Source of the DNA: a bacterium
GTDB taxonomy: Bacteria; UBA10199; JACPAL01; GCA-016699445
DNA: 64,000 bases
Assembly: GCA_036274695.1 (NCBI GenBank)
Contig: DASUFF010000141.1
Coordinates: 3,123-67,122, forward strand
Direction of reading: 5' to 3'
In this document: piece by piece, positions 28,955 through 34,617 of the stretch
Layout: each line of letters starts with the position of its first letter
Position numbering within the stretch: position 1 is the stretch's first letter
Notes under the pieces: generated by a model
Databases searched by the model: none
The model's input: the letters and a program-made list of their open reading frames with translations, nothing else
Told to the model about the DNA's origin: nothing
Translations under genes and position numbers: made by a program

Positions 28955-31456
28955 CTATCCATTTCCGTGGCCCCGCGCCCGCCCCAGGTATTTCGTCAGC
29001 TCGAACCACAGCACGCTCGAAAAACCGGCGGCGCCGCAGAGCAGGAAATCCCGGACGGCGAGGGGGCCGAAGCGGAAGAGGTCCCTCAAGGGGGGAACGG
29101 CGAGGACGGCCGCCAGCAAGGCGGTCGCCCCGGCGAAGACGGCCCAAAGGGCCTTGTTCGGGGTCCGCAGCGTCGCCCAGATCGTGCTCTTCCAGGACCG
29201 GTTGGTGAGGATGAGCGCGAGGTTCGCGGCGACCAGGGTCGCGAAGGTGAGGGCGCGGAGGCGTCCTTCCGGCAAGCCGAAATGGCGGCCCAACGCGTAG
29301 GCGCCGAAGACGACGGCCAGGGCCCCGGCCCCTTGGAGAAGGCTGAAGAGCAGCACCTTGCGGCCGAGCAACGGCGCGTCCCTCGGGCGCGGCGGGCGGG
29401 TCATGACGTCTTTCTCCTCGGCCTCCGCTTCGAAGACGATCGAGCAGGCGGGGTCGATGATCAGCTCCAGGAAAACGATGTGCGCGGGGAAGAACGCGAG
29501 AGGCCAGCCGAGCAGGACGGGCAGCAGGGCGAGGCCGGCGATGGGCACGTGGACGGCCAGGATGAAGGAAATGGCCTTTTGAAGGTTGTCGAAAATGCGG
29601 CGGCCCATACGGACGGCGGCGACGATGGAGGAAAAGTCGTCGTCCACGAGCACGATCGAGGCCGATTCGCGCGCCACGTCGGTTCCGCGGCCGCCCATGG
29701 CCACGCCGATGTGGGCGGCCTTGAGGGCGGGGGCATCGTTGACGCCGTCGCCGGTCATGGCCACCGTCTCGCCGTCGGCCTTGAGCGCCCCGATCAGCTT
29801 GAGTTTGTACTCCGGCGACATGCGCGCATAGACGTTCACGGCGCGCGCCTTCTCGCGCACGACCTCGTCGGGCAAGGCCTGAAGCTCGGCTCCGGTCAAA
29901 ATGCCCGCCTCCGTCGGCAAGCCGATCGTATCGGCCACGTGCCGGGCCGTTCCCGGATGGTCGCCCGTGATCATCACCACCCGGATCCCGGCGGCGTAGC
30001 ATTCCCGGATGGCCCCGGGGACCGACGGGCGCACGGGGTCGACGAAGCCCAGCAATCCCACCAGCCGAAAGACGAAATCGTGCTGGATCTCCGGCAGCTT
30101 CGGGTTTTGAAAGTGCGCCTTGGCGACGGCCAGCACGCGGAATCCGTCGTCCGCCATCGCCTTCACCGCGCGGGCCATGGTCGCGTGCTCGTCCTCGGGG
30201 AGATGGCATAGGTCGAAAATTGCCTCGGGCGCGCCTTTGGAGGCGATGACGAAATCCGTCCCCCCGGGGGATTGCCAGACGTGGGAGAGTGCCAGAAGCT
30301 CGGGCGTGAGCGGATATTCGCGGACCAAGGTCCAGTCGCGATGTACGTGTTCGGTCCCCGCGAGGAACCGGTCGGCGATCGCGGCGATGGCCTTTTCCAT
30401 CGGGTCGAAGGGGTTTTTCTGGCTGGCCAGCAGGGCGAACTCGCCCAGTTCGTGGAAGGCCTCCGGGAGGATTTCGGTTCCCGCGTCCACATCTTGAACG
30501 GCGCCGTTCGCGTAGAGGCGCTCGACGGACATCCGATTCTGGGTGAGGGTTCCGGTCTTGTCCACGCAGAGCACGGTGGTCGCCCCCAGGGTCTCGATGG
30601 CGGCGATCCGCCGCGTGAGCACCCGGCGCGCGGACATCCGCCAGGCGCCGAGGGCCAAAAAGACGGTCAGGACGACCGGGATTTCCTCCGGGATCATCGA
30701 CATGGCCAGGGTGATTCCGATGAGCACGCCCTCGAGGGCGTCGGCCCGCGAGAGGCCGTAGAGGACGGCGACGCTGACGCACACGACGAACGCGGCGACG
30801 GCCAGGATCTTCACGAGCCTGCCGGTTTCCCGCTGCAGGCGTGTCTTTTCGGGCTTCATCCCCGCGAGCATCTTGCCGATGCGCCCCATCTCGCTCCGAA
30901 GCCCGGTGGCGGTCACCAGGGCGGTCGCGTGGCCCTGGACCACGAGCGTTCCCGAGTACACCGTTTCGTCCTTCCGCTTGCGCACGGGGACGGATTCGCC
31001 GGTTAAGAGAGATTCGTCCGCGGCCAGATGGGAGGCGGTCAGGAGGGCGCCGTCGGCGGGGACGCGGTCGCCCTCGGAGAGCATCACCAGGTCGCCGGCC
31101 ACGACCTCGCGCCCGGGGATCCGGCGCGCGGCGCCTTCGCGCACGACCAAGGCCCGGGGGCTGGAGAGGTCGCGGAGGGCCTCCAAAGCCCGCTCCGTCT
31201 TGCGCTCCTGATAAAAGGTAATGGCGAGGACGAAGAAGACGGAGACCCCGAGCATCAGGGCTTCCTTCAAGTCGCCGAGGGAAAAATAGATCCCGGAGGC
31301 CGCCAAAAGCAGGAGGATCATCGGCTCCGAGGCCACTTCGCGCGCGATCGCGGCGACGCCGCGGGGCCTGGCGGAGGGAAGCTCGTTCGCCCCGTCGCGG
31401 AGCAAGCGCTCCGCCGCTTCCTTTTCCGTGAGGCCGGGGGGGAGGGGGTGTTTCAT
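28955..31456 (-). CDS. Cation-transporting P-type ATPase (P2/P3-like, Ca2+/Mg2+ type)
   Basis: 833 aa from internal M (MKHPLPPGLTEKEAAERL..); DKTGTLT phosphorylation site, TGDGVNDAPAL, PEEIP. Its start overlaps the hipA stop (ATGA at 31453-31456). The 195-aa upstream extension in the ORF track is shadow. Confidence 0.85.
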   Translation of the reverse strand: MKHPLPPGLTEKEAAERLLRDGANELPSARPRGVAAIAREVASEPMILLLLAASGIYFSLGDLKEALMLGVSVFFVLAITFYQERKTERALEALRDLSSPRALVVREGAARRIPGREVVAGDLVMLSEGDRVPADGALLTASHLAADESLLTGESVPVRKRKDETVYSGTLVVQGHATALVTATGLRSEMGRIGKMLAGMKPEKTRLQRETGRLVKILAVAAFVVCVSVAVLYGLSRADALEGVLIGITLAMSMIPEEIPVVLTVFLALGAWRMSARRVLTRRIAAIETLGATTVLCVDKTGTLTQNRMSVERLYANGAVQDVDAGTEILPEAFHELGEFALLASQKNPFDPMEKAIAAIADRFLAGTEHVHRDWTLVREYPLTPELLALSHVWQSPGGTDFVIASKGAPEAIFDLCHLPEDEHATMARAVKAMADDGFRVLAVAKAHFQNPKLPEIQHDFVFRLVGLLGFVDPVRPSVPGAIRECYAAGIRVVMITGDHPGTARHVADTIGLPTEAGILTGAELQALPDEVVREKARAVNVYARMSPEYKLKLIGALKADGETVAMTGDGVNDAPALKAAHIGVAMGGRGTDVARESASIVLVDDDFSSIVAAVRMGRRIFDNLQKAISFILAVHVPIAGLALLPVLLGWPLAFFPAHIVFLELIIDPACSIVFEAEAEEKDVMTRPPRPRDAPLLGRKVLLFSLLQGAGALAVVFGAYALGRHFGLPEGRLRALTFATLVAANLALILTNRSWKSTIWATLRTPNKALWAVFAGATALLAAVLAVPPLRDLFRFGPLAVRDFLLCGAAGFSSVLWFELTKYLGRARGHGNG

Positions 31457-32685
31457 AGGTGCGGATAATTCCGGAGTTCGCGCGTCCTTGCGAGGATCTT
31501 CAGAATGGCGTCTTTCTGGTCGAAGAATTCGGGAAAACGGGTGAACAATGCTTCGGCCTTTTCCGGGAGCCCGGCGGCCATTTCCTTGAGCGTCTGAAGG
31601 ACGAAAGCCGCCTTGACGCCCGCTTCCTCCGCGAACCGTTCCCAATGACGTTGGAAAATCCTGTCCGCGGAATATTCGCCGCCGATCTTCATCGCCATGC
31701 GCGAGGAAAGGCCGGGATAAACCACCGTCGACATCAGGTCGTAGAAGGGCGCCAAGAGGACGCCGTCTTTCGAGATCAACAAAGAGATGTTCTTTCCGTG
31801 GGCGTCCGCGTTGCCGATCAAGAAATTGAACGCAGCCCATTGGATCAGGGACTTCTTGTCGGCGGCCGGTTGACGGCTCTTGGATTCCAGGAGGCGGAAA
31901 CAGTCCCGGAAAGAAGGGCCTCCTTCGTTCTCGTACTTGCGATCCGGCATGCGGCCCAGCGCCTGGCAAAAGTCTTCTTGATGGAGGCGCCGGACCGTTC
32001 CCGCCGCCGTCGCTCGGTCGTACCGCTTCACCAGGCAATACGGATTTTTTCCCGTCGACCGGAACAGTACCGGCGCGGCGGACAATCCCATGTGGACGGC
32101 GAGCGTCATGCAGAAGGCCTCGTTTTCGGTGGAATCGGGAACGTGGGAAATGCTGGGTTTGAGGATGTAAGAACTCGCGAACGCCCCTTCGGGAAGGAAG
32201 AGATTCGTGTCGTCATAGTGAACCGGCAATTTATTTTGGGCGCCGGCCAGGGAAAGCCTCGCTCCCTCTTGGGTGGCGAGCAGGGGACGACTCGGCAGGT
32301 TTTGAAGGCGTGCGTCGAGATCCTCGCGGGACAGGGGACGATAAGATCCCTCCCGCGAAGGCCTCGTTCCTTCGGGAAGCAAGGATAACGCCCCGGCGCA
32401 ATCGCCCCCGATCGCTTCCAACAGTTTGAAGTCGTTGCCCGGCGAGATGCCGAATTTGGCCGCGAGCAGCCGCCGGACTTCGCCCTCCGGCAGCAGGTTG
32501 GCGAAAAACGCGCGCGCGGCGTCGCGGTCGTAAATTTCCTCTCGCAGCGGCAGGGACAGCGAGAGGGGATATTTGTCCGGACCCGCAAGCCATTCCGGCG
32601 CGTACTGGAAAAGGTATCTGCCGTTACCGTCCAGCCAGAGTCGGCCGACGGCCTTCGCGTCCACGTAGACGATGAGCGTATTCAT
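31453..32685 (-). CDS. hipA: HipA-family serine/threonine kinase toxin
   Basis: GAQNKLP and LIGNADAHGKNISLL motifs plus an N-terminal coupling domain. Confidence 0.85.
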   Translation of the reverse strand: MNTLIVYVDAKAVGRLWLDGNGRYLFQYAPEWLAGPDKYPLSLSLPLREEIYDRDAARAFFANLLPEGEVRRLLAAKFGISPGNDFKLLEAIGGDCAGALSLLPEGTRPSREGSYRPLSREDLDARLQNLPSRPLLATQEGARLSLAGAQNKLPVHYDDTNLFLPEGAFASSYILKPSISHVPDSTENEAFCMTLAVHMGLSAAPVLFRSTGKNPYCLVKRYDRATAAGTVRRLHQEDFCQALGRMPDRKYENEGGPSFRDCFRLLESKSRQPAADKKSLIQWAAFNFLIGNADAHGKNISLLISKDGVLLAPFYDLMSTVVYPGLSSRMAMKIGGEYSADRIFQRHWERFAEEAGVKAAFVLQTLKEMAAGLPEKAEALFTRFPEFFDQKDAILKILARTRELRNYPHL

Positions 32686-32906
32686 TCGTCGTGTCCCCTT
32701 TCCCGACCCTCAAGAGTCAGCCCCAATCCTTGCAGGACTTTCAGAACTTTCGAGAACCGAACCGTTTCCTTCCCGTTTTCCAGGTCCGAGAGAAAACGCG
32801 TTCCGACTCCGCAAAGAGCGGCCGCTTCCGATTGGGCGAGTCCATCCTTTTTCCTTTTCTTTCGGATGAGGTCAGAAATATCATTTAATTTCAATATTTT
32901 AGACAT
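32682..32906 (-). CDS. hipB: HipB-like XRE-family HTH antitoxin
   Basis: 74 aa HTH (LAQSEAAALCGVGTRFLSDLENGK); overlaps the hipA start (ATGA). Confidence 0.75.
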   Translation of the reverse strand: MSKILKLNDISDLIRKKRKKDGLAQSEAAALCGVGTRFLSDLENGKETVRFSKVLKVLQGLGLTLEGRERGHDE

Positions 32907-32909
32907 AAT

Positions 32910-33026
32910 TATTCCCGATCGGGAATATATCGCGGACTTAAGGCAAAGACAAGAGATTTATTCCCGATCGGGAATGGAATAGGAAGTTTCGGTGAAGGCT
33001 AAGGCTAATATTCCCGATCGGGAATA
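32910..33026. promoter_or_regulatory. Three copies of an 18-bp perfect palindrome TATTCCCGATCGGGAATA (putative HipB operators) spaced 49-50 bp apart in an AT-rich promoter region
   Basis: Copies at 32910-32927, 32959-32976 (17/18 match) and 33009-33026, directly upstream of hipB. The half-sites resemble E. coli hipB operators (TATCC-N8-GGATA). Confidence 0.7.
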
Positions 33027-33043
33027 TAAGGTCTGTCTGTCCC

Positions 33044-33508
33044 TCACGGCCCTCGCCGGCCTTTCTCGATCCTCTCAAGGCGTTGGATGATGTCCTTGAG
33101 CGAACGTTCGATCCTCTCGGTCTCCTTCTCCTCCGAGCGGACCTCTCTCTCGATCGGCAAAAGTTCCCTCTCCACTTCCTCCTTCATGAGGAAGGTCAGG
33201 AGCACGCCGGTGAAGGTGATGAAGAAGACGGTGCCCGTGTACATGAGCGCGATGGCGATCAGGCGTCCGGCGAAGGTGATCGGCAGGAGGTCTCCGTAGC
33301 CGATCGTGGTGATGGTCGAGACGCCCCACCAGAGGCAATTGAAATAAGAGCTCATGGCGGGGTTGACGTTCCGCTCCAGGAAGTAGACGGCGGTGACGGC
33401 GATGAGGAGGACCACATTCCCGACGACGGTCAGATAAATGAAAGTGGGATGGAAGAAGGCCTTCAGGAGTTGCCGAGATTCTTTTTTAAAGAGTTTGAAG
33501 AGGCTCAT
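33044..33508 (-). CDS. Small two-TM potassium channel (KcsA-like) with C-terminal coiled coil
   Basis: 154 aa from internal M (MSLFKLFKK..); selectivity filter TTIGYGD; ATGA overlap with the radical SAM gene stop at 33505-33508. Confidence 0.8.
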   Translation of the reverse strand: MSLFKLFKKESRQLLKAFFHPTFIYLTVVGNVVLLIAVTAVYFLERNVNPAMSSYFNCLWWGVSTITTIGYGDLLPITFAGRLIAIALMYTGTVFFITFTGVLLTFLMKEEVERELLPIEREVRSEEKETERIERSLKDIIQRLERIEKGRRGP

Positions 33509-34617
33509 AGTCCCTGTGAGGAAGCGAACTCCTTCAGGAACACCGGTTTCCGGCGGTTGCCCCAATGGCCCGGCCGGTCCTCGAACACGCCGGGAAGGGC
33601 GGTGCCGCAGGCGGCGCAGGTGCCGTCCTCCTTCAGGCGCCAATCGACGATCGCGTAACCCCGCCGCCCGATCACGCGCCTCTTGCACCCGGCGCAGTAG
33701 GTGTCCTCGCCCGCGACGTGAGCGATGTTGCCCACGTAAGCATGATGTATCCCGTTCTTCAGAGCGATCTCCCGGGCCTTGATCAGCGTCTGCGGCGGCG
33801 TCGGAGGCGTGTCCATCATCTTCCAATCGGGATGAAAGGCCGTGAAGTGCACGGGCACGTCGGGGCCTAAGTTTTCCAGGATCCAACCCGTCATTTGATC
33901 GGTCTCCTTCTCCGAGTCGTTCAAGCCGGGGATCATGAGGTTGGTGATCTCGAACCAGCACTTCGTTTCTTTTTTAAGATAAACCAGCGTATCGAGCACC
34001 GGCTGGAGATGGCCGACGGTGACGTCGCCGTAGAATTTTTCGGTGAAGCCTTTGAGATCCACGTTGGCCGCGTCCATGTATCGGTAGAGCTCGGCGCGGG
34101 CCTGCGGTTCGATATAACCGGCGGTGACCGCCACGGTCTTGAGCCCCGCCTCGCGGCAGGCCTGAGCGACGTCGACGGCGTATTCGAGAAAGACGGTCGG
34201 GTCGTTGTAGGTGAAGGCCACGCTCCGGCAGCCCAAGTCCTTCGCCGCCTTGGCGATGGCCTCGGGGGAGGCCTGGTCGGCCAAGGTGTCGATCTCGCGC
34301 GATTTGGAGATGTCCCAGTTCTGGCAGAATTTGCAGGCCAAGTTACAGCCCGCCGTCCCGAAGGAGAGGATGGGCGTGCCCGGCAGGAAGTGGAAGAGGG
34401 GCTTTTTCTCGATGGGGTCGACGCAGAAACCGCTGGAGCGCCCGTAGGTGGTCAGGACGATGCCGTCGTTCTCCCGCATGCGGACGAAGCACATCCCGCG
34501 CTGGCCCTCGTTCAAGCGGCAGAAACGGGGGCAGACGTCGCACTGGACGCGCCCGTCGTCTAATTTGTGCCAATAACGGCCGGGCACCACGGGCCCCGCC
34601 GGAAACCGGGACGCCAT
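33505..34617 (-). CDS. AmmeMemoRadiSam-system radical SAM enzyme
   Basis: RYWHKLDDGRVQCDVCPRFC N-terminus, CNLACKFCQN radical SAM Cys triad, C-terminal Cys cluster. Confidence 0.85.
   Translation of the reverse strand: MASRFPAGPVVPGRYWHKLDDGRVQCDVCPRFCRLNEGQRGMCFVRMRENDGIVLTTYGRSSGFCVDPIEKKPLFHFLPGTPILSFGTAGCNLACKFCQNWDISKSREIDTLADQASPEAIAKAAKDLGCRSVAFTYNDPTVFLEYAVDVAQACREAGLKTVAVTAGYIEPQARAELYRYMDAANVDLKGFTEKFYGDVTVGHLQPVLDTLVYLKKETKCWFEITNLMIPGLNDSEKETDQMTGWILENLGPDVPVHFTAFHPDWKMMDTPPTPPQTLIKAREIALKNGIHHAYVGNIAHVAGEDTYCAGCKRRVIGRRGYAIVDWRLKEDGTCAACGTALPGVFEDRPGHWGNRRKPVFLKEFASSQGL

What the first reader, a model, noticed from the sequence alone, without database searches (positions are those of the whole stretch)
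32907..33030. Three phased copies of a perfect 18-bp palindrome TATTCCCGATCGGGAATA in the hipBA promoter, likely HipB operators
Perfect or near-perfect copies sit at 32910-32927, 32959-32976 and 33009-33026, spaced 49-50 bp centre-to-centre, in a strikingly AT-rich spacer within a ~68% GC genome. The half-site TATTCC/GGAATA resembles the E. coli HipB operator TATCC-N8-GGATA but with a 6-bp spacer. The ~5-helical-turn spacing places the copies on one DNA face, suggesting cooperative binding or looping. The proximal operator abuts the hipB start codon.
Basis: partly seen in the sequence, partly recalled or inferred. Interest (0 to 1): 0.55.

Follow-up and report, generated by a model that had tools for sequence, protein, structure and literature searches.

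The report
Three HipB operators on hipBA promoter
Three evenly spaced copies of an 18-bp palindrome sit on the promoter of a toxin-antitoxin (hipBA) operon and are almost certainly where the antitoxin HipB binds to shut off its own operon. The same sites, spacing and promoter layout recur before related hipBA operons in about a dozen bacterial phyla, so this is an ordinary regulatory device that is unusually well conserved.

Summary
TATTCCCGATCGGGAATA occurs at 32910-27, 32959-76 (1 mismatch) and 33009-26, 49 and 50 bp apart, and nowhere else in the 64 kb window (chance expectation 0.02). All genes here are on the minus strand. The array lies between the end of a small K+-channel gene and a 74-aa Y4mF-type HipB antitoxin, which is followed by a 410-aa HipA kinase.

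Comparative data strongly support the operator reading. The exact 18-mer occurs in 115 stretches of other genomes. About 80 of these lie immediately upstream of hipB-hipA homologues that are only 38-63 % (HipB) and 29-54 % (HipA) identical, spread over about 12 phyla. These loci have 2-3 copies 49-50 bp apart.

A second set of loci, chosen by the HipB recognition-helix peptide rather than by DNA, shows the same motif (tWTTMCCG-NN-CGGKAAWa) and the same phasing. A TTGACA-like -35 box sits about 6 bp after O2. The -10 box is made of TA plus the first four bases of O1.

So O1 covers the -10 box and the transcription start, O2 abuts the -35 box, and O3 is an upstream auxiliary site. This is a new member of a known kind. 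The closest analogues are the operator arrays of E. coli, Shewanella and Legionella HipB. Binding has not been tested. The "same DNA face" claim is not secure.

The parts
32910..32927 (.). O1, the promoter-proximal operator: perfect palindrome TATTCCCGATCGGGAATA. Its first 4 nt (in gene orientation) form the end of the predicted -10 box, it covers the predicted transcription start, and it ends 3 nt before the hipB ATG.
   Evidence: sequence. (-10 box TATATT at 32929-32924). (the same position is conserved in homologous loci; the base before O1 is A in 85 % of 62 loci).
32959..32976 (.). O2, the middle operator: CATTCCCGATCGGGAATA in gene orientation, with 1 mismatch at the distal end. It ends 6 nt upstream of the predicted -35 box.
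   Evidence: In one search, a TTGACA-like box (at least 5/6) lies 5-6 nt after O2 in 22 of 62 DNA-selected loci and 4-6 nt after O2 in 16 of 37 protein-selected loci. In the O3-O2 spacer, which serves as a control, the counts are 1 of 45 and 3 of 25.
33009..33026 (.). O3, the distal operator: a perfect palindrome 17 nt after the stop codon of the upstream K+-channel gene.
   Evidence: A third site 98-100 bp upstream of O1 is present in 45 of 62 DNA-selected and 25 of 37 protein-selected arrays.
32947..32952 (-). Predicted -35 hexamer TTGTCT (4/6 match to TTGACA).
   Evidence: the only promoter-like match in 32600-33300; shuffle mean 0.2. Its offset of 6 nt after O2 equals the family mode.
32924..32929 (-). 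Predicted -10 hexamer TATATT (TA plus the first four bases of O1), with a 17-nt spacer to the -35 box. The transcription start is inferred at about 32915-32918, inside O1, giving a 5' leader of about 10-12 nt.
   Evidence: The transcription start position is inferred, not measured.
32682..32906 (-). hipB: a 74-aa Xre/Cro-type HTH antitoxin of the Y4mF family. Its recognition helix is G-V-G-T-R37-F38-L-S-D-L-E-N-G-K.
   Evidence: HTH_3, 6.8e-10. (TIGR03070, 73.2 bits, above cut-off). (closest solved structures: Legionella HipB 8EZT, Shewanella HipB 4PU3, E. coli HipB). (R18, R37, E43, G45, K46 and G62 invariant across 38 homologues that share the operator).
31453..32685 (-). hipA: a 410-aa Ser/Thr kinase toxin that overlaps hipB by 4 nt.
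   Evidence: Couple_hipA 9e-31, HipA_C 5e-53. (Shewanella HipA 4PU3, 5e-50; E. coli HipA, 6e-44). (31 % identity to E. coli HipA; the SxAGAQxK loop, the DxHxKN catalytic motif and the PFYD motif all align).

Best explanation
The three palindromes are operators of the HipB antitoxin encoded immediately downstream. They form the autoregulatory switch of a hipB-hipA toxin-antitoxin operon on the minus strand.

Proposed mechanism:
1. A HipB dimer binds each 18-bp site through its helix-turn-helix, reading TATTCCCG half-sites around a free 2-bp centre.
2. O1 overlaps the -10 hexamer and the transcription start, so an occupied O1 blocks RNA polymerase.
3. O2 lies 6 bp upstream of the -35 box.
4. O3, a further 50 bp upstream, adds occupancy or helps build a larger complex.
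5. HipA, bound to HipB as HipA2HipB2, is expected to act as co-repressor and to be held inactive on the DNA.
6. Loss of HipB would de-repress the operon and free the kinase.

Shown here: the sites, their statistics, the gene identities, and the conservation of motif, phasing and promoter position across very distant hipBA loci.

Inferred: HipB binding, the transcription start, co-repression by HipA, and any contact between neighbouring complexes.
For: - Sites are real and unique in the window (relaxed core).
- Gene identities: a Y4mF-type HipB and a full-length HipA with the kinase motifs aligned.
- Scan of 185,579 species genomes for the exact 18-mer: 115 stretches, against about 9 expected for a random 18-mer in 596 Gb. 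Of these, 78 have a hipB homologue directly downstream by tblastn and 2 more by ORF reading. About 10 further loci show phased pairs at contig edges. HipB identity to the window protein is only 38-63 % and HipA 29-54 %.
- Record titles span Acidobacteriota, Planctomycetota, Gemmatimonadota, Myxococcota, Desulfobacterota, Alpha-, Beta- and Gammaproteobacteria, Armatimonadota, Verrucomicrobiota, Fibrobacterota, Spirochaetota, Elusimicrobiota and Bdellovibrionota.
- Adjacent sites are 49 bp apart in 51 cases and 50 bp apart in 48 cases.
- An independent, protein-selected sample (peptide pattern RF[ILV][SVI][DE]LExGK in metagenomes): 62 of 76 loci have at least 1 site and 56 have at least 2, mostly 49-50 bp apart, with a 38-39 bp subclass.
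- A -35-like box sits at a fixed offset after O2 but not after O3. A conserved A precedes O1, making a -10 box with O1's TATT. The window's only promoter-like match falls exactly there.
- The recognition-helix residues are invariant across the HipBs that share the site.
- In five complete chromosomes of the set the exact 18-mer occurs at one locus only.
- Precedents: E. coli HipB binds four TATCC-N8-GGATA operators (PMC3920265; located). Shewanella HipB binds four palindromes with a 50-bp period (PMC4150777). Legionella HipB binds three evenly spaced 18-nt sites (PMC10653801).
Against: - There is no binding, footprint or transcription-start data for this locus or for any member of this subfamily that I could find.
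- The window's -35 box matches TTGACA at only 4/6.
- O1 ends 3 nt before the ATG, which leaves no canonical Shine-Dalgarno sequence and implies a very short leader.
- 49-50 bp is not an integral number of helical turns. In Shewanella no cooperativity between adjacent operators was seen, so the role of O3 and of the phasing is unclear.
- In two GC-rich MAGs the same 18-mer is dispersed on many contigs away from hipBA, so the sequence is not exclusive to hipBA promoters everywhere.
Confidence: 0.85

Rival explanations
1. The palindromes are copies of a generic dispersed palindromic repeat (REP-like) or transcript-end hairpins. They would sit between the K+-channel gene and hipB by accident, with no link to HipB.
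For: - Each copy can form a 7-bp hairpin, and the terminator scan flagged O1 as hairpin-like.
- O3 lies 17 nt after the stop codon of the upstream gene.
- In two MAGs (binchicken_co165_281 and MAG077) the same 18-mer occurs singly on many contigs, embedded in longer GC-rich hairpins and without hipBA.
Against: - There are only three copies in 64 kb, all in one intergenic region.
- About 80 of 115 occurrences in other genomes are immediately upstream of hipB-hipA, whatever the upstream gene is.
- Five complete chromosomes have the exact sequence at one locus only.
- No U-tract follows O2 or O3.
- Protein-selected loci show the same motif.
Confidence: 0.04
2. The sites act at the RNA level, or are bound by a regulator other than HipB. 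For example, they could be hairpins in a read-through transcript from the K+-channel gene that sequester the hipB start, or targets of a host global regulator.
For: - No terminator is predicted between the K+-channel gene and hipB, so read-through RNA carrying all three hairpins is possible.
- O1 abuts the start codon.
Against: - The upstream genes differ among homologous loci while the array stays with hipB.
- A conserved -35/-10 pair placed between O2 and O1 puts O2 and O3 outside the hipBA mRNA.
- Variation is symmetric and spares only the 2-bp centre, as expected for a dimeric HTH site. An RNA stem would instead tolerate compensatory changes, and I saw none in the invariant core positions.
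- The only factor that co-occurs with the motif across about 12 phyla is HipB, whose recognition helix is invariant.
- There is no Rfam family match.
Confidence: 0.05

Closest known systems
E. coli K-12 hipBA operators O1-O4 (TATCC-N8-GGATA; Black et al. 1994; Schumacher et al. 2009 and 2015, as summarised in PMC3920265)
   Same: - 18-bp palindromes of the same geometry, upstream of hipB-hipA.
- Half-site TATCC versus TATTC.
- E. coli O4 (TATCCGCGATCGCGGATA) even shares the CGATCG centre.
- Several copies overlap the promoter, with the proximal copy at the -10 box and transcription start.
- HipB is an Xre-type HTH and HipA a kinase, 31 % identical to the window HipA.
   Different: - Four sites rather than three, with centres 28/39/28 bp apart rather than 49/50.
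- In E. coli O2 lies between the -35 and -10 boxes. Here O2 is upstream of the -35 box.
- HipB is only 27 % identical and has a different recognition helix (IKQATISNFEN versus VGTRFLSDLEN).
- In E. coli the N8 is variable. Here only the central 2 bp are free.
Shewanella oneidensis MR-1 hipBA operators (GTGTA-N6-TACAC x4; Wen et al. 2014, PMC4150777)
   Same: - Evenly spaced array with 34-bp gaps between 16-bp sites, giving a 50-bp period, the same period as here.
- So HipA is the closest solved relative of the window HipA (5e-50).
- So HipB is the second-closest solved HipB.
   Different: - Unrelated operator sequence and a 16-bp span.
- Four sites, the fourth inside the hipB ORF.
- No such site lies inside the window's hipB.
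Legionella pneumophila HipBST operators O1-O3 (PMC10653801)
   Same: - Three evenly spaced 18-nt inverted-repeat sites.
- O1 is close to the hipB start and overlaps the predicted promoter.
- The internal sequence is conserved.
- Lp HipB is the closest solved homologue of the window HipB (8EZT, 2e-10).
- HipB binding to the sites was shown by EMSA.
   Different: - A tripartite HipB-HipS-HipT system.
- 53-bp gaps, giving a 71-bp period.
- The authors describe these as motifs distinct from those of hipBA promoters.
y4mF-hipA of Sinorhizobium fredii NGR234 plasmid pNGR234a (namesake of NCBIfam TIGR03070), and rhizobial and sphingomonad plasmid homologues
   Same: - Same protein subfamily: HipB 50 % and HipA 47 % identical to the window proteins.
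- Three sites with the core TYCCG-NN-CGGKA, 49 bp apart, the last ending 7 nt before the CDS.
   Different: - Each site has 3 mismatches to the window's 18-mer (TAATCCCGAGCGGTAAAT, TTTTCCCGACCGGGAAAT, CTTTCCCGAGCGGGAAAA).
- It is plasmid-borne.
- I found no experimental work on its operators.
Caulobacter crescentus hipBA1 and hipBA2 promoters (Huang et al. 2020, PMC7029023)
   Same: [quoted passage not shown]
   Different: The repeat sequence is given only in an image (Supplementary Fig. S8), so I could not tell whether it is the same motif.

Membership tests
HipB operators of a hipBA autoregulated promoter (general kind) | Inverted-repeat sites located immediately upstream of a hipB (HTH antitoxin)-hipA (kinase) operon | tested here: met
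   The sites lie 3-120 nt upstream of hipB, and hipA overlaps hipB by 4 nt.
HipB operators of a hipBA autoregulated promoter (general kind) | Multiple copies that overlap or flank the -35 and -10 promoter elements | tested here: met
   predicts a promoter with the -10 box overlapping O1 and the -35 box 6 nt after O2. The position is conserved across the family. This is a prediction only; no transcription-start data exist.
HipB operators of a hipBA autoregulated promoter (general kind) | Co-conservation of the sites with the hipB gene in unrelated genomes | tested here: met
   About 80 of 115 DNA-selected loci. 62 of 76 protein-selected loci. pNGR234a.
HipB operators of a hipBA autoregulated promoter (general kind) | Specific binding of HipB (and the HipA-HipB complex) to the sites, and repression of transcription | not testable with these tools
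   This needs EMSA or footprinting and a reporter assay.
E. coli-type HipB operator TATCC-N8-GGATA | Match to the consensus TATCC-N8-GGATA | tested here: not met
   The window sites are TATTC-N8-GAATA, with one mismatch per half-site. The 18-bp geometry is the same, but the recognition helix differs.
E. coli-type HipB operator TATCC-N8-GGATA | Four sites with 10/21/10-bp gaps | tested here: not met
   Three sites with 31- and 32-bp gaps. E. coli centre-to-centre distances of 28/39/28 bp were verified.
Y4mF-family antitoxin (NCBIfam TIGR03070, couple_hipB) paired with a HipA carrying the TIGR03071 N-domain | Score above the curated cut-off, with an adjacent HipA that has the Couple_hipA domain | tested here: met
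   73.2 bits against a 71.65 cut-off; TIGR03071, 99.5 bits. PF13657 and PF07804.
Dispersed palindromic repeat (REP-like element) | Many copies scattered through intergenic regions of the same genome | tested here: not met
   Three copies in 64 kb, all at one locus. One locus per complete chromosome in five relatives. The whole source genome is not available, so this holds only for the window.
Intrinsic terminator | GC-rich hairpin followed by a U-tract at the end of a gene | tested here: not met
   O3 is followed by TTAGCCTTAGCC and O2 by AATCTCTTG. Only O1, which lies in front of a start codon, was flagged, and the count did not exceed the shuffle expectation (1 found, mean 0.9).

The most novel reading that the evidence does not exclude
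The spacing between neighbouring Hip operators is quantised in steps of about one helical turn with a constant remainder.

Observed distances:
- E. coli: 28 and 39 bp.
- This family: 38-39, 49-50, 60-61, 72 and 79-82 bp.
- Shewanella: 50 bp.
- Legionella HipBST: 71 bp.

All of these are about n + 0.7 turns at 10.5 bp per turn. This would mean that Hip systems in general build one conserved higher-order nucleoprotein geometry, in which HipB-bent DNA and HipA bridge or wrap successive operators. That structure would tie sequestration of the kinase to promoter occupancy.

Separately, the near-identical operator shared across about 12 phyla would let horizontally acquired hipBA modules cross-regulate one another.
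Probability: 0.25. Interest if true: 0.55.

Novelty: new member of a known kind. Interest (0 to 1): 0.3.

Why it matters
For this locus, the result gives a concrete, testable map of the hipBA control region: three operators, the -35 and -10 boxes, and a very short leader.

More broadly, the comparison defines the operator consensus (tWTTMCCG-NN-CGGKAAWa) and the three-site, 49-50-bp architecture for the Y4mF-type HipB/HipA subfamily. This subfamily is very widespread: more than 544 confirmed loci turned up in a single capped metagenome scan. It also occurs on rhizobial and sphingomonad plasmids. I could not find the motif in the searchable literature.

Because the site is so conserved, HipB proteins from different modules or species may recognise each other's promoters. 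That matters for cross-talk between paralogous hipBA modules and for annotating such promoters automatically. It does not change the accepted picture of how type II toxin-antitoxin operons are autoregulated.

Tried and rejected
- Generic repeat or terminator: rejected on copy number in the window, linkage to hipB elsewhere, and the absence of U-tracts.
- Known RNA family: an Rfam scan of 32500-33400 gave only sub-threshold eukaryotic miRNA/snoRNA hits. These are an artefact of two palindromes pairing.
- Finding the source genome to count sites genome-wide: the exact HipA protein is on record only on a 3.4-kb Logan contig (SRR25158403) with the same gene order. The regulon question could therefore be answered only for the window and for relatives.
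- Literature search for the 14-mer, 18-mer or core sequence: no relevant paper. Searches on Y4mF/HipB and the Acidovorax HipBA paper define no operator. The Caulobacter repeats are shown only as an image. Schumacher 2015 (PMC7502270) is not held.
- blastn of the 146-bp intergenic region against plasmids: no match. Similarity is confined to the short sites.
- Viral contigs: only 2 stretches carry the exact 18-mer, and neither has a hipBA hit within the fetched DNA.
- Periodogram of inter-site distances: it cannot separate periods between 10 and 11 bp, because there are few independent spacing classes and the loci are related. The helical-phase idea therefore stays a hypothesis.
- A fourth site inside hipB, as in Shewanella: none within 3 mismatches.

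Full report
**1. The observation**

The 18-mer TATTCCCGATCGGGAATA occurs at 32910-32927 and 33009-33026 without mismatch, and at 32959-32976 with one mismatch. With up to three mismatches allowed there is no other match in the 64-kb window. Dinucleotide-preserving shuffles give 0.02 matches on average, and none of 100 shuffles reaches three. A relaxed core, T[CA]CCG-NN-CGG[GT]A, is also confined to these three places. The start positions are 49 and 50 bp apart.

The 137-bp intergenic region is 44.5 % GC in a window of 62.5 % GC.

**2. Anatomy**

All relevant genes are on the minus strand. In the direction of transcription the order is:
- a radical-SAM gene (34617..33505);
- a 154-aa two-TM K+-channel gene that overlaps it by 4 nt and ends at 33044 (Ion_trans_2);
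- 17 nt of spacer, then O3 (33026..33009);
- 32 nt of spacer, then O2 (32976..32959);
- 31 nt of spacer, then O1 (32927..32910);
- 3 nt of spacer, then the ATG of a 74-aa ORF (32906..32682);
- a 410-aa ORF (32685..31453) that overlaps the 74-aa ORF by 4 nt.

The 74-aa protein is an Xre-type HTH (HTH_3, 6.8e-10). It passes the curated cut-off of NCBIfam TIGR03070, 'type II toxin-antitoxin system Y4mF family antitoxin / couple_hipB' (73.2 bits against 71.65).

The 410-aa protein has the Couple_hipA N-domain and the HipA_C kinase domain. Its closest solved relatives are Shewanella oneidensis HipA (4PU3, 5e-50) and E. coli HipA (6e-44). It is 31 % identical to E. coli HipA, and the SxAGAQxK phosphorylation loop, the DxHxKN catalytic motif and the PFYD motif all align. 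The gene identification 'hipBA' is therefore sound.

The consensus scan finds a single sigma-70-like promoter in 32600-33300 (shuffle mean 0.2). It lies on the minus strand:
- -35 box: TTGTCT at 32952-32947;
- spacer: 17 nt;
- -10 box: TATATT at 32929-32924.

The -10 box therefore consists of TA plus the first four bases of O1, and the -35 box begins 6 nt after O2. A start about 7 nt downstream of the -10 box would fall in the centre of O1 and leave a leader of only about 10-12 nt. This is inferred, not measured.

**3. Comparative evidence, DNA-selected**

A scan of one genome for each of 185,579 species for the exact 18-mer returned 115 stretches. By my arithmetic a random 18-mer in 596 Gb would be expected about 9 times.

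tblastn with the window's proteins shows a hipB homologue directly downstream of the palindrome in 78 of these stretches. ORF reading adds two more, L016 and L104. About ten others show phased pairs cut by a contig or locus end.

These HipB proteins are only 38-63 % identical to the window's, and the HipA proteins 29-54 %. By record title the hosts span Acidobacteriota, Planctomycetota, Gemmatimonadota, Myxococcota, Desulfobacterota, Alpha-, Beta- and Gammaproteobacteria, Armatimonadota, Verrucomicrobiota, Fibrobacterota, Spirochaetota, Elusimicrobiota and Bdellovibrionota.

Neighbouring sites are 49 bp apart in 51 cases and 50 bp apart in 48 cases. Most loci have three sites. In the five complete chromosomes of the set (L006, L057, L074, L086, L116) the exact sequence occurs at one locus only.

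**4. Comparative evidence, protein-selected**

The first set is biased towards the exact sequence. I therefore fetched loci using an alignment of HipB proteins (A1). The scan used the peptide pattern RF[ILV][SVI][DE]LExGK.

Of the 76 loci with enough upstream DNA:
- 62 have at least one site within four mismatches;
- 56 have two to four sites;
- none has the exact 18-mer, and the best sites have 1-4 mismatches.

The spacings are 50 bp (33 cases), 49 bp (13), 39 bp (19) and 38 bp (6).

Position-wise conservation in this unbiased set gives the consensus tWTTMCCG-NN-CGGKAAWa. Positions 3, 4, 6, 8, 11-13 and 15 are 84-100 % conserved, and the two central bases are free. The window's palindrome is thus the idealised consensus of a family-wide operator.

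The family namesake, y4mF-hipA on pNGR234a, also has three such sites 49 bp apart, the last ending 7 nt before the CDS.

**5. Promoter position is conserved**

In the O2-O1 spacer a TTGACA-like hexamer (at least 5/6) lies 5-6 nt after O2 in 22 of 62 DNA-selected arrays. It lies 4-6 nt after O2 in 16 of 37 protein-selected arrays. At the same offsets of the O3-O2 spacer, which serves as an internal control, it occurs in 1 of 45 and 3 of 25.

The base before O1 is A in 85 % and 65 % of arrays in the two sets. That A corresponds to the conserved A2 of a -10 hexamer whose T6 is O1's invariant fourth base. The window's predicted promoter has exactly this geometry.

The layout 'O2 | -35 | 17-18 nt | -10 overlapping O1 | hipB' is therefore a family property. 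This is what one expects of a repressor-controlled promoter. O1 close to or touching the start codon is also common among the homologues.

**6. The reader protein**

Across 38 HipBs that share the operator, mean column identity is 38 %. The invariant residues are R18, R37, E43, G45, K46 and G62, and G35, F38 and L42 are nearly invariant. R37 and F38 lie in the second helix of the HTH.

By analogy with 434-type repressors (my own knowledge, not tested here), R37 occupies a base-contacting position. It is a plausible reader of the invariant G/C core.

E. coli HipB is 27 % identical and has a different recognition helix. The resemblance of TATTC to TATCC may therefore reflect common descent or may be coincidence. 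I cannot tell which.

**7. Comparison with known systems**

- **E. coli.** HipB binds four TATCC-N8-GGATA operators cooperatively, with HipA as co-repressor (PMC3920265). I located them in MG1655 at centre-to-centre distances of 28, 39 and 28 bp. The -35 box lies between O3 and O2, and the -10 box between O2 and O1.
- **Shewanella oneidensis.** Four GTGTA-N6-TACAC sites are separated by 34 bp, which gives a 50-bp period. The DNA is bent by about 125 degrees, and ITC found no cooperativity between adjacent operators (PMC4150777).
- **Legionella HipBST.** Three 18-nt sites have 53-bp gaps. O1 overlaps the predicted promoter, and HipB binding was shown by EMSA (PMC10653801).
- **Caulobacter.** The hipBA1 and hipBA2 promoters carry identical, regularly spaced inverted repeats whose sequence I could not read.

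The window's array is a further instance of this known design. It has E. coli-like site geometry, Shewanella-like periodicity and a Legionella-like three-site layout. No paper in the searchable library contains the 14-mer or 18-mer.

**8. What remains uncertain**

- **Binding is untested.**
- **The 'same face' claim.** It rests on 10 bp per turn. At 10.5 bp per turn, 49.5 bp is 4.7 turns.
- **Spacing classes.** The classes seen across the family (38-39, 49-50, 60-61, 72 and 79-82 bp) and in E. coli, Shewanella and Legionella (28/39, 50 and 71 bp) differ by about one turn and share a remainder of about 0.7 turn. This suggests that rotational setting matters. However, the loci are related and the classes are few, so the periodogram cannot fix the period. 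I treat this as a hypothesis.
- **Dispersed copies in two MAGs.** Two GC-rich MAGs carry the same 18-mer as solitary copies on many contigs, inside longer hairpins. The sequence can therefore have another life elsewhere. Nothing of the kind is seen in this window.

**9. Verdict**

The operator interpretation is supported by strong comparative evidence, and I put my confidence in it at about 0.85. The result is a new member of a known kind, of modest interest. The useful by-product is a family-wide operator consensus and promoter map for Y4mF-type hipBA modules.

Noticed in passing
L003, L030, L047, L072, L089, L112, L114, L115 (one MAG, binchicken_co165_281); L046, L050, L109, L110 (MAG077): The identical 18-mer occurs as solitary copies on many contigs of two GC-rich MAGs, usually as the AT-rich core of a longer GC-rich hairpin and without hipBA. 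L115 has a hipB-like gene with one site and no hipA hit. This could be a REP-like repeat, or the regulon of an orphan HipB-like repressor.
   Followed up: partly
Loci L002-L197; L117 (E. coli): Distances between neighbouring sites fall into classes of 38-39, 49-50, 60-61, 72 and 79-82 bp. E. coli has 28/39/28, Shewanella 50 and Legionella HipBST 71. The steps are about one helical turn, with a constant remainder of about 0.7 turn.
   Followed up: partly
L198 1651-1766 (pNGR234a, upstream of y4mF): The namesake of the Y4mF antitoxin family has three degenerate sites (core TYCCG-NN-CGGKA) 49 bp apart, the last ending 7 nt before the CDS. As far as I could find, these are not annotated or described.
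   Followed up: yes
window 32995-33008 and 32972-32981 (minus strand): There is a short direct repeat TTAGCC x2.3 in the O3-O2 spacer. There is also a duplicated half-site (ATTCC-ATTCC) at the distal edge of O2, which accounts for O2's single mismatch.
   Followed up: no
window 31453-33043: The hipBA cassette is lower in GC than its surroundings: hipB 48 %, intergenic region 44.5 %, hipA 60 %, window 62.5 %, neighbouring P-type ATPase 68 %. Together with the presence of homologues on conjugative plasmids, this suggests horizontal acquisition.
   Followed up: partly
window 33044-34617 (minus strand): A radical-SAM gene (370 aa) overlaps by 4 nt a very small K+-channel gene (154 aa, Ion_trans_2, TTIGYGD filter). 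The same pair precedes hipBA on the only other contig that carries this HipA (L001). No terminator is predicted between the channel gene and hipB.
   Followed up: no
alignment A1 (HipB homologues); window 32682-32720: Many HipB homologues carry a Trp about 10 residues after the last helix (RGW, KGW or PFW). The window's HipB has RGH there. In E. coli the C-terminal Trp of HipB docks into HipA (my own knowledge), so the tail-toxin contact may differ here.
   Followed up: no
L012, L015, L025, L043, L069, L099, L005 (Planctomycetota-type loci): This subgroup uses the same palindrome but with irregular, longer spacings (60-62, 72, 79-82 and 201 bp) and up to four or five sites. Its HipB has RL instead of RF in the recognition helix. 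Its HipA aligns to the window HipA only over the kinase domain, at about 30 % identity.
   Followed up: no
window 32903-32984: Sub-threshold Rfam hits to eukaryotic miRNA precursor models (mir-60, 26.6 bits against a gathering score of 67). These are an artefact of O1 and O2 being able to pair as one long hairpin.
   Followed up: yes
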